DNA from: the human T2T-CHM13v2.0 reference genome, Homo sapiens
NCBI RefSeq assembly: GCF_009914755.1
Contig: NC_060927.1
Length of the DNA: 64,000 bases
Direction: 5' to 3' (one strand)
Shown here: in pieces, positions 29,046 through 35,380 of the stretch
Layout: each line of letters starts with the position of its first letter
Numbering within the stretch: position 1 is the first letter of the stretch
Translations under genes and position numbers: made by a program
The notes under the pieces: model-generated
What the model was told of the DNA's origin: nothing
What the model saw: the letters and a program-made list of their open reading frames with translations, nothing else
Databases searched by the model: none

Positions 29046-29552
29046 TACATATAGATGGTCCCCCAACTTAAGATGGTTCCACTTGCAATTTTTTTTACAA
29101 CTATAAAATGTTTTTATTTCAATTACATAATAACACTTATGTTTTCCTCAAATTTTAATGAGGATTTGGTCTTTTTGCATTCAATTCTATCTTGTAACAG
29201 TAATATGAATCTACATAATTTCATAAAATGTCAACATTCATAAGGTACATTCCTTTGTGATTTTATATTTTACAATTAAATCTAACTTTACAATTATTTT
29301 TAAATGTTTCTTTATATAGAAAACAGATATTTTCTTCAGGCAGATCAAAACAAGAATTTTCCAATAAGAATATACTGGGACATAACAAATGAAAACATTT
29401 ATAACAAAATACCAAAAGTGATTCAGCTCTTTAAAATATCCTACTCCAGTCTAATTTGTAGTTTGCACAAGAACAAGTAACCTTTTTTTACTGTTCTTTT
29501 GAATGATGATTAGAAATTCAAACAAAGAGAAGTAATTTTAAGGTTCAAAAAC

Positions 29553-30023
29553 TTTTTCTTTTTTTTAGAGACAGGGTCTCACTCTGTCTCCCAGGCTAGA
29601 GTATAGTGGTGCAATCATAGCTCACTGCAGCCTTGAACTCCTGGCCTCAAGCGATCCTCCAAACTTGGCTTCCCAATGTGCTAGGGTTACAGGCATGAAA
29701 ACATTGTTTTGTGTGTGTGTGTGTGTGTGTGTGTGTTTTTTAGACAGAGTTTCGCTCGTTGTCCAGGCTGGAGTACAATGGCTTGATCTTGGCTGACTGC
29801 AATCTCCGCCTCGCAGGTTCAAGCGATTCTCCTGCCTCAGCCTCCGGAGTGGCTGGGATTACAGGCGCCCACCACCACGCCTGGCCAATTTTTTGTATTT
29901 TTCGTAGAGACAGGGTTTCACCATGTTGGCCAGGCTGGCCTTGAACTTCTGACCTCAGGTGATCCACCCGCCTTGGCCTCCCAACGTGCTGAGATTACAG
30001 GCGTGAGCCACCACACCCGGCCA
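29553..30023 (-). mobile_element. Alu monomer (29553-29697) and full Alu with (GT)n tail (29707-30023) within the retrocopy 3' UTR
   Basis: Alu reverse-complement sequences; (GT)n at ~29711-29735. Confidence 0.85.
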
Positions 30024-30778
30024 AAAACATTTAAAAAATGACTGTCCCTGCTCAAATACTGCAGTAGGAAATGTAATTTGACATGTATCACTTCCAGAAA
30101 AAATCTTTAAACTTTGTATAAAATGAATTTGATACATCATCAGCATGAAGTTAAAATCTCCTACAAAGTAAATTCAAGTATCATCAACAATGAGATCCAA
30201 AAGCATTGGTTCAAAATCAAAGACTTATATGAGGTGAAGGCAAATAAAGCCCCTCATGCTTTCAGACCTTTACTTGTTATCCTTAAAATGATTATTGTTC
30301 TAAGGTGCAAATCTTTTCAGTGACCTATTTGCTATTTGGCGGTTTATCTCCTTTAAATAAAATACCATACAGGTTATAATGTATATTTTAAAATCAAATA
30401 TGAAAGTACACATATATGAACAAGACATTAATTTAAATATCAATTATATTCATAATACAGAAGTCTAAGAATGCTATTTGGTCATTTCAATTAGATGCTG
30501 ATATATTTGGTCAAGAATATTCACATTCCTATCAGCCTAAGGCAAATGGTAAATGCTTCTATTTTTATTAAGTGGACTATAAACAGTAGACATTATTGTT
30601 TGATACTACTGGATATATGCTCTCAATTAGAATGTACACTGATAACAAATATGTCTTTCTAATCTGGGTGATAACCTCAATGATTACATGGAAATCTACA
30701 AGTAACAGTCTATAACTTAAAGCAGTAGATCACCTGGTGATTGGCATACAGTGCATCTCTATGAATTTAGAACATTCT

Positions 30779-30786
30779 ACTTACAT
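30779..30786 (-). other. KCNMB3: KCNMB3 beta3b first-exon splice donor (CCAAT|GTAAGT); supplies the 'AT' of the start codon
   Basis: Perfect GTAAGT; AT+G(ACA GCC TTT) gives MTAF..., 2+192+199+381=774 nt = 257 aa, matching recalled beta3b; the exon 5' boundary cannot be determined. Confidence 0.75.
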
Positions 30787-32989: not shown

Positions 32990-33420
32990 GGATCTCACGA
33001 GCCTCCGCGCGGGCCTCCCGTTTTGCGGCGAGCCGGGCCTCCGCCAGCCTCTGCGCTTCCGCGCTCAAACAGTAGATCTCCCGGCTCTGCGTGGCCGCGG
33101 GGCTGGTCAACCTGCTGGGCTCGGCCCGCTCCACCCGGCGGGAAACGCTCGGGGACCGTGCCGGAGCCCCCCCCCGCGGGCCGGGCCAGGGGGCGCGCGC
33201 TCTGTCCGCGGAGACGGAGCCACTCGCCGCGAAGTGAACGCTCGCGCTTCCGGGGCCAAGAGCCAGCCCGCCGGGGAGCGGCTCGCGGGACTGGGCTCGG
33301 GCGCAGCCGGCAGGGGCGGGGCGTAGGTGGCCGCGGGCTGAGCCTGGCCGGGGGTGGAATGGCGCGGGGGAAGCGGGGCTCGGGCGCCTCCGCCCGCCCC
33401 ATGGCCCGCCCCGCCCCACA
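32990..33420. promoter_or_regulatory. CpG island with GC boxes at the 5' end of the retrocopy
   Basis: Very high GC and CpG density; GGGGCGGGGC ~33313 and CCCGCCCC motifs ~33393-33417. Confidence 0.8.
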
Positions 33421-34123
33421 CTTGCAATTTTTTTACATTACTATGGTGTGAAAGCAATATGAATTCAGTAGAAACTGTACCTCAAATTTTGAATTTGCAT
33501 TATTTCCTGGGCTAGCGATATGCAGTACCCTACTCTCTTGAGATGCTGGGCAGTGGCAGCCAGCCATAGTTCCCAGTCTGCCACACAATCATGAGGGTAA
33601 ATAGCTAATACTCTGAAGTTTTCAACTTACAGTATTTTCCACTTATGATGGATTTGTCAGGATGTAATCCCACTGTAAATGGAGAACTATCTATATGCAT
33701 GTTTTTACAAAAGATACATCTAAAACACAGATACAAAAAGGGTGAAATTTATAGGCAAAATGTAACAAAAAGCAAACATGAATGTTAAAAATTAAAAAGC
33801 TTTATTAGAAATTTAAAAATAAGTGTTTTAACACTGATTAAAGGCTCAATTCACACGGAAAATGTAACAATGCTAATTTGTAGGTACCTGATAGCATTGT
33901 TTCACTGATTAAACTACAAGAAGAAATAGACAAAATCCACTATCAGATTATGATGTATTTTTATACACTCCCCCAGTAATTTAGATAGCTTGACCTGAAC
34001 AAACCAGTAGGGTAATAGATTTAAGTAAAGCAATTAACAAGTTTTATCTAAATGATAAATATAGAATACTCACTTCTACAGAATATATATTATTCTCAAG
34101 CATGTATGGAACATTTATGAAAC

Positions 34124-35380
34124 TGTGTCCGGAATTGGTGGGTTCTTGGTCTCACCGACTTCAAGAATGAAGCCGCGGACCTTCGCAGTGAGTGTTATAG
34201 CTCTTAAGGCGGCGCCTCTGGAGTTGTTCATTCCTCCCGATGGGTTCGTGGTCTCCCTGGCTTCAGGAGTGAAGCTGCAGACCTTCGCAGTGAGTGTTAC
34301 AGCTCATAAAGGCAGCGTGGACCCAAAGAACGAGCAGTACCAAGATTTATTGCAAAGAGCAAAGGAACAAATCCTCCACAGCGTGGAAAGGGACCTGAGC
34401 AGGTTGCCACTGCTGGCTGGGGCAGCCTACTTTTATTCTCTTATCTGGCCCCACCCACATCCTGCTGATTGGTCCATTTTACAGAGAGCCGATTGGTCCA
34501 TTTTACAGAGAGCTAATTGGCCCATTTTGACAGGGTGCTGATTGGTGCGTTTACAATCCCTGAGCTAGACACAAAGGTTCTCCACATCCCCACTAGATTA
34601 GCTAGATACAGAGTGTGGACACAAACGTTTTCCAAGTCCCCACCAGAGTAGCTAGATACAGTGTCGATTGGTGCATTCACAAACCCTGAGCTAGATACAG
34701 GGTGCTGATTGGTGTGTTTATAAACCTTGAGCTAGATACACAGTACCAATTGGTGTATTTACAATCTCTTAGCTAAACATAAACGTTCTCCAAGTCCCCA
34801 CCAGACTCAGGAGCCCAGCTGGCTTCACCCAGTGGATCCCGCACCGGGGCCACAGGTGGAGCTGCCTGCCAGTCCTGTGCGTGTGCCCGCACTCCTCAGA
34901 CCTTGAGTGGTGGATGGGACTGGGTGCCGTGGAGCAGGGGGCAGCGCTCATCAGGGAGGCTCGGGCGGCACAGGAGCCCACGGAGGCGGGGGGAGGCTCA
35001 GGTATGGCGGGCTGCAGGTCCCAAGCCCTGCCCCGCGGGGAGGCACCTAAGGCCCTGTGAGAAATTGAGCACAGCAGCTGCTGGCCCAGGTGCTAAGCCC
35101 CTCACTGTCCGTGGCTTGTAGGCCGGTCGGCCACTCGGAGTGCTGGCCCGCTGAGTCCACGCCCACCTGGAACTCGGACTGGCCCGCAAGCTCCGCGCAC
35201 AGCCCGGGTTCCCGCCCGCGCCTCTCCCTCCCCACCTCCCTGCAAGCTGAGGGAGCCGGCTCTAGCCTTGGCCAGCCCAGAAAGGGGCTCCTCAGGCGCG
35301 GCCAGAGTGGGCGCCAAGGCCGAGGAGGCGCGGAGAGCGAGCGAGGGCTGCAAGGGCTGCCAGCACGTTGTCACCTCTCA
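34124..35380 (-). mobile_element. Solo LTR12 (ERV9; LTR12C-like) LTR
   Basis: - strand starts TGAGAGGTGACAACGTGCTGGCAG and ends CCAATTCCGGACACA; tandem CCAAT (ATTGG) U3 repeats 34468-34753; flanks AAAC/AGAC. Confidence 0.93.

What the first reader, a model, noticed from the sequence alone, without database searches (positions are those of the whole stretch)
29089..35380. Tandem retroelement cassette: LTR12 promoter -> LRRFIP1 retrocopy -> KCNMB3 exon 2, all on one strand
Seen: a solo LTR12 on the - strand with repeated CCAAT boxes, a GATA site and the AATAAAA TATA-like box (~34431-34437). Its 3' end is ~700 bp from the retrocopy 5' end, and it points through the retrocopy to the beta3b donor. 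Known: ERV9/LTR12 LTRs are NF-Y-dependent promoters/enhancers, active in germ and erythroid cells and induced by HDAC/DNMT inhibitors. Inference: the LTR could drive or enhance chimeric LTR-LRRFIP1P1-KCNMB3 transcripts. That would be a primate-built, epigenetically switchable route to an inactivating BK beta subunit.
Basis: partly seen in the sequence, partly recalled or inferred. Interest (0 to 1): 0.72.

Follow-up and report, generated by a model that had tools for sequence, protein, structure and literature searches.

The report
Solo LTR12C upstream of retrocopy-born KCNMB3 exon
An ordinary, solitary ERV9 (LTR12C-type) retroviral LTR lies about 700 bases upstream of an LRRFIP1 processed pseudogene that supplies the first exon of the KCNMB3 beta3b isoform, but nothing available here shows that the LTR drives that exon.

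Summary
A 1,257-bp solitary LTR (window 34124-35380, minus strand) lies 703 bp upstream of the LRRFIP1P1 retrocopy (29097-33420). KCNMB3 alternative first exon 1b (30785-31728) lies wholly inside that retrocopy, and all three share one strand.

The LTR is real and belongs to ERV9/LTR12, most likely subfamily LTR12C. It aligns end to end with 13 of 13 published LTR12C loci. It is twice as distant from a published LTR12D and a published LTR12. Its divergence is average for LTR12C, which print calls hominoid-specific. Its core promoter motifs are intact.

The interpretation that the LTR drives beta3b is untested:
- No RefSeq transcript starts in the LTR.
- No searched paper links KCNMB3 to LTR12.
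- The retrocopy, seen in rhesus in print, is probably older than the LTR.
- A nearer candidate promoter exists: the retrocopy's own 5' CpG island (CpG o/e 0.93; 46 of 56 parental CpGs kept).

RefSeq does mark part of the LTR U3 as an hESC enhancer. The beta3b splice donor was inherited ready-made from the LRRFIP1 3' UTR.

Verdict: ordinary elements in a suggestive arrangement, with the function open.

The parts
34124..35380 (-). Solitary ERV9 LTR, LTR12C-type, 1257 bp, with TG...CA termini
   Evidence: It aligns end to end with 13 of 13 published LTR12C loci. No other LTR12 match exists in the window.
35381..35384 (-). 5' copy of the 4-bp target-site duplication (GTCT on the minus strand)
   Evidence: It matches the 3' copy at 3 of 4 bases.
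34120..34123 (-). 3' copy of the 4-bp target-site duplication (GTTT on the minus strand)
   Evidence: The family rule is 4 bp: perfect in 26 of 33 relatives.
34836..35380 (-). GC-rich 5' extension of U3 (GC 0.70, CpG o/e 0.55). Print describes this extension for LTR12C/D/E only.
   Evidence: Composition is. It aligns to named LTR12C loci, is missing in the ADH1C LTR12, and is largely deleted in the DHRS2 LTR12D. The print source is PMC8767690.
34464..34775 (-). U3 tandem-repeat enhancer region. It holds 7 CCAAT boxes, 4 TATCTAGCT (GATA-type) cores and 2 of the LTR's 4 GTGGGGA motifs.
   Evidence: Tandem Repeats Finder reports period 41 x 3.1 copies (34650-34775) and period 24 x 3.4 copies (34464-34546). 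The motifs are as quoted in the review.
34431..34456 (-). Core promoter: GC box (34456-34448), AGATAA (34446-34441) and the AATAAAA TATA-like box (34437-34431)
   Evidence: The role of AATAAAA is as described in the review. The GC-box pattern is from my recall.
34406..34417 (-). Exact copy of the published LTR12C start-site motif GCCAGCAGTGGC, at 77% of the LTR length
   Evidence: The exact box-plus-motif pair is kept in only 7 of 36 copies compared, including this one.
34346..34351 (-). AATAAA polyadenylation signal in R
34139..34317 (-). Two U5 'B' repeat units, about 77 nt each and 84% alike. Many relatives carry one more unit, which explains the shorter length here.
   Evidence: Self-match. 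Extra units in relatives are seen.
34642..35143 (.). RefSeq functional element 'H3K27ac-H3K4me1 hESC enhancer', inside the LTR U3
   Evidence: annotation file.
33435..34119 (.). AT-rich spacer (GC 0.32), unique in the genome except for an old interspersed repeat at 33440-33614
29097..33420 (-). LRRFIP1P1 processed pseudogene: 8 parental exons joined, with a broken reading frame
   Evidence: There are 7 stops in the first 560 codons of the best frame.
33421..33434 (-). 5' copy of the 14-bp target-site duplication of the retrocopy
29082..29095 (-). 3' copy of the 14-bp target-site duplication of the retrocopy. It is merged with a very short A run.
33000..33420 (-). CpG island carried in from LRRFIP1 exon 1 (GC 0.79, CpG o/e 0.93). 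This is the rival candidate promoter for exon 1b.
   Evidence: It keeps 46 of 56 parental CpGs, against 16 of 38 in the last-exon part (Fisher p = 1.2e-4). It overlaps the RefSeq 'silencer' 33022-33451.
30785..31728 (-). KCNMB3 alternative first exon 1b (beta3b). Only its last 2 bases are coding.
   Evidence: It corresponds to the end of the LRRFIP1 coding sequence plus about 70 nt of 3' UTR.
30779..30786 (-). AT|GTAAGT: the first two bases of the beta3b start codon plus the splice donor
   Evidence: It is identical in the parent LRRFIP1 3' UTR. The donor is also noted in human, chimp and rhesus in PMC2442174.

Best explanation
Two independent retro-insertions lie in the KCNMB3 intron between exon 1a and the shared exon at 22580-22771. 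The annotated exon 1b lies wholly within one of them.

(1) Retrocopy. An LRRFIP1 mRNA was retro-copied, as shown by its 14-bp duplication and 8 joined exons. Print reports the matching sequence in macaque as well as human, so the insertion predates their split. It brought a ready-made AT|GTAAGT donor from the parental 3' UTR. That donor now ends KCNMB3 exon 1b and gives beta3b its start codon. It also brought a CpG island that has since stayed almost free of CpG decay.

(2) LTR. An ERV9 provirus of the LTR12C type later inserted 703 bp upstream in the same orientation. It then collapsed to a solitary LTR.

Function. The LTR is an average member of its family and keeps a complete NF-Y/GATA/TATA-like/start-site promoter. 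Like most of its about 2,450 siblings, it is most likely methylated and silent in ordinary tissues. Exon-1b transcripts most likely start within the retrocopy, either at or downstream of its CpG island. The LTR contributes at most conditional enhancer or alternative-promoter activity.

What is shown: the anatomy, the family, the origin of the donor and the CpG preservation. What is inferred: the order of insertion, the silence of the LTR and the place of initiation.
For: Family and ordinariness:
- End-to-end alignment with 13 of 13 named LTR12C loci.
- Non-CpG distance to named LTR12C has a median of 0.090, against 0.191 to the named LTR12D and 0.196 to the named LTR12.
- The terminal-branch estimate is 0.036-0.038 among 33 copies, ranking 14th to 18th. 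It is 0.041-0.043 among this copy plus 13 named LTR12C, ranking 7th to 10th of 14.
- CpG o/e is 0.51, within the 0.30-0.62 range of the relatives.

Exon origin.

CpG island: o/e 0.93, with 46 of 56 CpGs kept against 16 of 38 elsewhere, p = 1.2e-4.

No LTR-initiated transcript appears among the 6 RefSeq KCNMB3 transcripts.

Print:
- Exon 1b sequence is found in human, chimp and rhesus only.
- LTR12C is hominoid-specific and absent from macaque.
- All LTR12 subfamilies are highly methylated.
- In the CRISPR-activation study of more than 600 LTR12C, 20% gained H3K4me3 and 21 + 22 proximal coding genes rose.
- 103 of 200 novel retrocopy promoters overlap CpG islands.
Against: - RefSeq labels the CpG-island stretch (33022-33451) a 'silencer', not a promoter. 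The annotated exon-1b start (31728) is 1.3 kb downstream of the island, so neither candidate promoter coincides with the annotated 5' end.
- The LTR keeps an exact box-plus-start-motif pair. Only 7 of 36 compared copies have it, and three of those are published active loci: TP63, KCNN2 and the HBB control region.
- RefSeq marks part of its U3 as an hESC enhancer.
- KCNMB3 message is reported in testis and sperm, tissues where LTR12 is said to be active (the LTR12 germline activity is partly my recall).
- Carelli et al. found that only about 3% of expressed retrocopies inherited a parental promoter.
- The hominoid age of this particular copy is inferred from its family and was not seen in other primates.
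Confidence: 0.55

Rival explanations
1. The LTR12C is a true alternative promoter. Transcripts start at its start-site motif and run through or splice across the spacer and retrocopy. They then use the 30785 donor, or an LTR-proximal donor, to join KCNMB3 at 22771. This happens in germ cells or after loss of DNA methylation or histone deacetylation.
For: - It is in sense orientation, 2.7 kb upstream of an annotated first exon.
- All core motifs are intact.
- Few polyadenylation signals lie on the way: 2 AATAAA and 0 ATTAAA.
- Consensus-like donors sit just after the LTR, at 34155, 34073 and 33630.
- 30 of the 33 rows in the review's Table 1 are LTR12C, most of them listed as promoters. They include another potassium-channel gene, KCNN2.
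- KCNMB3 message is found in testis and sperm.
Against: - No RefSeq transcript starts there.
- KCNMB3 is absent from the review's table.
- 0 papers hold KCNMB3 together with LTR12.
- The base rate is low. Of more than 600 activated LTR12C, 43 proximal coding genes rose, and only 20% of the elements gained the promoter mark.
- The promoter mark was linked to ERV9 internal sequence downstream, which this solitary LTR lacks.
- The exon probably predates the LTR.
Confidence: 0.2
2. The LTR works only as an enhancer. Its NF-Y/GATA/MZF1-type U3 repeats open chromatin in some cell states, such as embryonic stem cells or blood progenitors. They raise initiation at the retrocopy island, at the exon 1a promoter or at a neighbouring gene. 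The LTR itself is not the start site.
For: - RefSeq places an 'H3K27ac-H3K4me1 hESC enhancer' at 34642-35143, inside U3.
- Most activated LTR12C acquire the H3K27ac enhancer signature rather than H3K4me3.
- There are 7 CCAAT boxes, 4 GATA-type cores and 4 GTGGGGA motifs, as in the HBB control-region LTR described in the review.
Against: - The RefSeq label's likely source (PMC6084406) reports chromatin-mark ChIP combined with a plasmid reporter assay, but the link to this label is my recall. I did not see the record behind this element. That paper states that only a minority of marked regions are active.
- No target gene is shown.
- LTR12 copies are usually methylated.
Confidence: 0.2
3. The sense-oriented LTR mainly harms or trims host transcripts. 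Its R-region AATAAA would end exon-1a-initiated KCNMB3 pre-mRNAs early, so it would be a mildly deleterious or neutral passenger.
For: - A sense AATAAA lies in R at 34351-34346.
- The LTR lies in the intron after exon 1a.
- Print reports an antisense bias of intronic ERVs, read as selection against sense copies (PMC1794541; search listing only).
Against: - The review states that no LTR12 is known to act as a host polyadenylation site.
- Full-length exon-1a transcripts are annotated.
Confidence: 0.05

Closest known systems
Published LTR12C alternative promoters (TP63, GBP2, GBP5, IRGM, KCNN2, TNFRSF10B and others; Table 1 of PMC11853044)
   Same: - Same LTR subfamily, by end-to-end alignment.
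- Same motif set.
- Sense orientation upstream of a host exon.
- 4-bp duplication and solitary state.
   Different: - No LTR-initiated transcript is annotated or in searched print for KCNMB3.
- A CpG island from another retro-insert lies between the LTR and the exon.
- There are two U5 repeat units instead of the three seen in many relatives.
ERV9 LTR at the 5' border of the beta-globin locus control region (LTR12C enhancer)
   Same: - Exact AATAAAA plus start-motif pair.
- CCAAT- and GATA-bearing U3 repeats.
   Different: - 8 CCAAT boxes and 1257 bp here, against 12 CCAAT boxes and 1695 bp there.
- No functional data exist for this copy.
Retrocopies that form chimeric transcripts with a host gene (Carelli et al. 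2016, PMC4772013)
   Same: A processed pseudogene inside a host gene's intron, in sense orientation, is spliced to host exons.
   Different: - The direction of benefit is reversed here. The host gene uses the dead retrocopy as an alternative non-coding first exon, with a donor that pre-existed in the parental 3' UTR.
- The retrocopy's own reading frame is broken.
LTR12 proper (ADH1C promoter) and LTR12D (DHRS2 promoter)
   Same: Shared U3 repeats, promoter, R and U5.
   Different: - LTR12 lacks the 5' extension and matches only bases 552-1243 of this LTR.
- LTR12D lacks bases 176-551.
- Both are about 0.19-0.20 distant, against 0.09 for LTR12C.

Membership tests
ERV9 LTR12 (any subfamily) | U3 tandem repeats of about 41 bp carrying CCAAT, GATA-type and GTGGGGA motifs | tested here: met
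   A period-41 array of 3.1 copies plus a period-24 array. There are 8 CCAAT boxes, against 1.03 expected and 0 of 2000 shuffles reaching 8. There are also 4 TATCTAGCT and 4 GTGGGGA motifs. The motifs are as quoted in the review.
ERV9 LTR12 (any subfamily) | AATAAAA box about 30 nt upstream of the start-site motif GCCAGCAGTGGC, followed by a short R with AATAAA and U5 repeat units | tested here: met
   The box is at 34437-34431, the motif at 34417-34406 and AATAAA at 34351-34346. There are two U5 units.
ERV9 LTR12 (any subfamily) | TG...CA termini and a 4-bp target-site duplication | tested here: inconclusive
   The termini are met. The duplication matches at 3 of 4 bases (GTCT/GTTT). The same 3-of-4 state is seen in 4 of 33 relatives, and 26 of 33 are perfect.
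LTR12C | The ~600-bp 5' extension (shared with D and E) and full-length similarity to loci named LTR12C in print | tested here: met
   13 of 13 named LTR12C loci align from base 1 to base 1252-1257. The median non-CpG distance is 0.090, against 0.191 for LTR12D and 0.196 for LTR12.
LTR12C | Not LTR12E (the other full-length subfamily with the 5' extension; 104 copies against 2453) | not tested
   No locus named LTR12E in print could be pinned. The one copy found in 70 kb spanning the SORD gene and its flanks is on the wrong strand for the published one. Curated repeat models would settle it.
LTR12C | Hominoid-specific presence at the orthologous site | not testable with these tools
   No other primate genome is reachable here. 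The expectation comes from print.
Co-opted LTR12 promoter of a host gene | Host-gene transcripts that begin in the LTR | tested here: inconclusive
   0 of 6 RefSeq KCNMB3 transcripts start in the LTR. No CAGE or read data are available here. 0 papers hold KCNMB3 with LTR12, and the gene is not in the review's table. Supplementary gene lists were closed.
Co-opted LTR12 promoter of a host gene | NF-Y binding and active chromatin at the copy | not testable with these tools
   Only the motifs and a RefSeq hESC enhancer label over 34642-35143 are available.
Processed pseudogene (L1-mediated retrocopy) | Parental exons joined without introns, flanking target-site duplication, 3' end after a polyadenylation signal, disabled frame | tested here: met
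   8 exons at 92-98% identity. A 14-bp duplication. An A-rich signal about 20 nt before the end, with only a vestigial A tail. 7 stops in 560 codons.

The most novel reading that the evidence does not exclude
A hominoid-specific LTR12C landed just upstream of an older, retrocopy-born first exon. It gave apes a methylation-gated, NF-Y-dependent germline or early-embryo promoter for beta3b, which print describes as an inactivating BK-channel subunit. BK-channel inactivation in human testis or sperm, or in epigenetically derepressed tumour cells, would then be regulated differently from that in monkeys, which would have the exon but not the LTR.
Probability: 0.15. Interest if true: 0.6.

Novelty: already known. 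Interest (0 to 1): 0.3.

Why it matters
As it stands, this is an ordinary solitary LTR12C beside an annotated pseudogene. Both stretches are already masked or annotated in the reference.

Two points are worth keeping.

First, the origin of exon 1b. The 2008 study of KCNMB3 variants found exon 1b only in primates and could not say why. In its text 'retro' and 'LRRFIP1' have 0 occurrences. The sequence gives the answer. The exon, its splice donor and two bases of the start codon are LRRFIP1 mRNA sequence brought in by retrotransposition. I found no paper stating this. Three papers hold both gene names, and by listing they are unrelated.

Second, a natural comparison across primates. If the LTR is hominoid-only, the locus offers the same retrocopy-born exon with and without an LTR12C upstream. 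Public primate expression data could test whether such an LTR changes use of a host exon.

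Tried and rejected
- Segmental duplication as a dating aid. The spacer between the LTR and the retrocopy has no second copy in the genome, only an old repeat. This route was dropped.
- Absolute dating from divergence. The terminal-branch estimate for this LTR (0.036-0.043 non-CpG) equals or exceeds the whole retrocopy-parent distance (0.035 non-CpG). The same measure gives 0.036-0.049 for the IRGM LTR12C, which print dates to great apes. The measure therefore contains diversity that predates insertion and cannot order the two inserts. 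Only a relative statement ('average LTR12C') is kept.
- Ascertainment bias. The 20 unnamed copies were chosen as the best matches to this LTR, which flatters its rank. I therefore repeated the estimate with the 13 named loci alone.
- Named loci. 17 regions were fetched. CGREF1 and ZFP90 gave no LTR12 match in the 10 kb that the tool returned and were dropped. 15 were used. L031 (5'-truncated), the LTR12D locus and the LTR12 locus were left out of the 33-copy distance table.
- LTR12E comparator near SORD. 70 kb was fetched. It held one copy on the plus strand, which could not be equated with the antisense LTR12E of the paper. It was not used.
- Literature. KCNMB3+LTR12 returned 0 papers. LRRFIP1P1 returned 1, unrelated by listing. 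KCNMB3+LRRFIP1 returned 3, unrelated by listing. The KCNMB3/HDAC/endogenous-retrovirus search was badly framed: it required 2 of 3 terms and returned 2,320 papers. Among the 20 listed, one paper held all three terms, and it is unrelated by title. KCNMB3+LTR returned 4. In the one I opened, the LTR mention concerns another gene and the KCNMB3 sites lie at exon 1a.
- Supplements. Supplementary tables are closed, and I did not ask for any. These include the gene lists of the LTR12C activation study and of inhibitor-induced LTR start sites. They may well name or exclude KCNMB3.
- From recall only, unseen here: Uebele 2000 and Xia 2000 on beta3 variants, Brocks 2017 on inhibitor-induced LTR start sites, and Pang and Snyder 2020 as the possible source of the 'silencer' label. 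The link between Barakat 2018 and the RefSeq enhancer label is also recall.
- Papers, by what I saw. PMC11853044: outline, sections 3, 4, 5, 7 and passages. PMC2442174: passages and section 15. PMC11317136: abstract and sections 19, 21. PMC8767690, PMC5753468, PMC3789364, PMC6908575, PMC6084406, PMC4772013, PMC7549247: passages only. PMC1794541 and PMC5085097: search listing only.

Full report
**What is there.** On the minus strand, window 35380..34124 is a 1,257-bp LTR. It begins TGAGAGG and ends GGACACA. A search of the window's own genome with this stretch found 4315 first-look candidates. The tool scored 40 of them, and the full-length non-self matches were 81-87% identical. All started at query base 15-21 (one at 49) and ended at 1258-1279. 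This fixes the bounds and shows a large repeat family.

No other match to the LTR exists in the 64-kb window. Nothing next to it resembles internal proviral sequence. The four bases on either side are GTCT and GTTT. In 33 relatives the same 4-bp flanks are identical in 26, match at 3 of 4 in 4, and worse in 3. The element is therefore a solitary LTR with a slightly decayed target-site duplication.

**Anatomy.** From 5' to 3' on its own strand the LTR has these parts:
- A GC-rich 545-bp extension (GC 0.70).
- A repeat region, with a period-41 array of 3.1 copies and a period-24 array of 3.4 copies. It carries 7 of the 8 CCAAT boxes.
- A GC box, AGATAA and AATAAAA (34437-34431).
- The exact motif GCCAGCAGTGGC (34417-34406). 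The 2025 review names this as the usual LTR12C start site, about 30 nt after the box.
- An AATAAA in R (34351-34346).
- Two U5 repeat units.

Eight CCAAT boxes is far above chance: 1.03 +/- 0.98 in 2000 dinucleotide-preserving shuffles, with none reaching 8.

**Family.** The review's Table 1 gives genome positions and subfamily names for co-opted LTR12 loci. I located 15 of them in this assembly from gene positions. Their lengths equal the published ones exactly in 8 cases and within 5 bp in 7.

All 13 named LTR12C loci align with this LTR from base 1 to base 1252-1257. The ADH1C LTR12 matches only bases 552-1243. The DHRS2 LTR12D lacks bases 176-551. On shared columns without CpG-prone sites, the distance is 0.090 (median) to named LTR12C, 0.191 to LTR12D and 0.196 to LTR12. 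Print says the ~600-bp 5' extension occurs in LTR12C (2453 copies), LTR12D (377) and LTR12E (104).

The element is therefore ERV9/LTR12, most likely LTR12C. LTR12E could not be tested because no named LTR12E locus could be pinned.

**Age.** A solitary LTR has no partner to date it, and no other primate genome is reachable here. I estimated how far each copy lies from the others, using pairwise distances only.

Among 33 full-length copies, this one has a terminal-branch estimate of 0.036-0.038 without CpG-prone sites (14th to 18th of 33). With all sites it is 0.069-0.079 (19th to 21st of 33). The 20 unnamed copies had been chosen for likeness to it, so I repeated the estimate with the 13 named LTR12C only. 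That gave 0.041-0.043, ranking 7th to 10th of 14. For comparison, IRGM gave 0.040-0.049, GBP5 0.042-0.053 and SCIN 0.046-0.071.

Print dates the IRGM copy to the great-ape ancestor. It says the GBP2 and SCIN copies are absent from macaque. The review places the main LTR12 expansion between the gibbon and gorilla splits, with the family ceasing about 6 million years ago. This copy's CpG content (55 CpG, o/e 0.51) is also typical; the relatives range 0.30-0.62.

So this copy is an average LTR12C, most likely a hominoid-age insertion. The measure includes diversity that predates insertion, because it exceeds what the great-ape age of the IRGM copy allows. I therefore give no absolute figure from it.

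**The retrocopy and the exon.** Window 33420..29097 matches LRRFIP1 on chromosome 2 as eight exons joined without introns. The first exon is 92% identical, six small exons are 94-98%, and one 3.3-kb last exon is 94%. A 14-bp direct repeat flanks it at 33434-33421 and 29095-29082. Its frame is broken, with 7 stops in 560 codons.

KCNMB3 exon 1b (30785-31728) lies wholly inside the part that corresponds to the end of the LRRFIP1 coding sequence plus about 70 nt of its 3' UTR. The junction AT|GTAAGT supplies two bases of the beta3b start codon and the splice donor. It is identical in the parent gene. The donor therefore came ready-made.

Zeng, Xia and Lingle found exon-1b sequence and this donor in human, chimp and rhesus only. 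They did not connect it to a retrocopy. The retrocopy-parent distance is 0.045 at all sites and 0.035 at non-CpG sites, summed over both branches. That fits an insertion before the human-macaque split if the parent is constrained.

**Does the LTR drive the exon?** Points in favour:
- Sense orientation and intact motifs.
- An exact box-plus-start-motif pair, kept in only 7 of 36 compared copies. Three of those are published active loci.
- Only two AATAAA and no ATTAAA between the start motif and the donor.
- A RefSeq 'H3K27ac-H3K4me1 hESC enhancer' at 34642-35143, inside U3.
- Reports of KCNMB3 message in testis and sperm.

Points against:
- None of the 6 RefSeq KCNMB3 transcripts starts in the LTR, and the exon-1b transcripts start at 31728.
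- KCNMB3 is not in the review's table.
- No paper in the library holds KCNMB3 with LTR12.
- The base rate is low. Of more than 600 activated LTR12C, 20% gained the promoter mark and 43 proximal coding genes rose. The promoter mark went with downstream ERV9 internal sequence, which a solitary LTR lacks.
- The exon is reported in rhesus, whereas LTR12C is reported absent from macaque. The exon probably worked before the LTR arrived.

**A nearer candidate.** The retrocopy's first 420 bp (33000-33420) is a CpG island, with GC 0.79 and CpG o/e 0.93. It keeps 46 of 56 parental CpGs, with 5 changed to TG/CA. The last-exon part keeps 16 of 38, with 18 changed to TG/CA (Fisher p = 1.2e-4).

Such preservation over tens of millions of years indicates that the island stayed unmethylated in the germline. 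That is the usual state of islands that initiate transcription. Carelli et al. found 103 of 200 novel retrocopy promoters in CpG islands, though only about 3% of expressed retrocopies inherited a parental promoter.

Two facts count against this candidate. RefSeq calls 33022-33451 a 'silencer'. The annotated start at 31728 lies 1.3 kb below the island. Neither candidate promoter is therefore confirmed.

**Verdict.** The functional reading is open. The elements are ordinary and already annotated or masked.

The most useful by-product is an explanation of why beta3b exon 1b is primate-specific. It is LRRFIP1 mRNA sequence, donor included.

The most novel reading not excluded is a hominoid-only, methylation-gated LTR promoter added to an older retrocopy-born exon. 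I rate it at about 0.15.

**Limits.**
- No expression, chromatin or other-primate data could be reached.
- Supplementary tables that may list this locus were closed.
- The subfamily call rests on named loci, not on curated models.
- Several background statements are from recall and are marked as such in Tried and rejected.

Noticed in passing
window 33000-33420: The retrocopy kept the CpG island of LRRFIP1 exon 1 almost undecayed: CpG o/e 0.93, with 46 of 56 parental CpGs kept against 16 of 38 further down. RefSeq labels the overlapping 33022-33451 a 'silencer'.
   Followed up: yes
window 30779-30786; L038 about 1808: The beta3b AT|GTAAGT junction is identical in the LRRFIP1 3' UTR, about 70 nt after the parental stop. 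The donor therefore pre-existed in the mRNA that was retro-copied.
   Followed up: yes
window 33440-33614: An old interspersed repeat abuts the retrocopy's 5' duplication. It has 543 first-look candidates genome-wide at about 73-80% identity. It is not listed among the masked repeats of 100 bases or more.
   Followed up: no
window 35581-35950: An Alu on the minus strand, with a long A-rich tail (about 35590-35665), lies 200 bp upstream of the LTR (masked interval).
   Followed up: no
window about 29736-30023: The Alu inside the retrocopy is also present in the parental last exon, because the alignment runs through it. It was therefore part of the LRRFIP1 mRNA and is not a later insertion.
   Followed up: partly
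window 11540-11930: By the annotation, the 3' ends of PIK3CA (plus strand) and KCNMB3 (minus strand) overlap tail to tail by about 390 bases.
   Followed up: no
G000 C22:17257312-17259255: A 2-kb KCNMB3P1 pseudogene is annotated on chromosome 22. The LTR-retrocopy spacer has no copy there, so that duplication does not cover this cassette.
   Followed up: partly
G000 C3:37085008-37085151: A 75% match to one LRRFIP1 exon on chromosome 3p. It is probably a paralogous gene and was not examined.
   Followed up: no
L041:1459-3072 (G000 C15, SORD intron): A 1.6-kb LTR12-type copy with extra U5 units sits in sense orientation in a SORD intron. It is 76% identical to this LTR. It could not be matched to the antisense LTR12E that a paper describes near SORD.
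   Followed up: partly
L001:3457-4358 (G000 C4, upstream of ADH1C): A second LTR12-type copy without the 5' extension lies about 1.4 kb beyond the published ADH1C LTR12, on the opposite strand.
   Followed up: no
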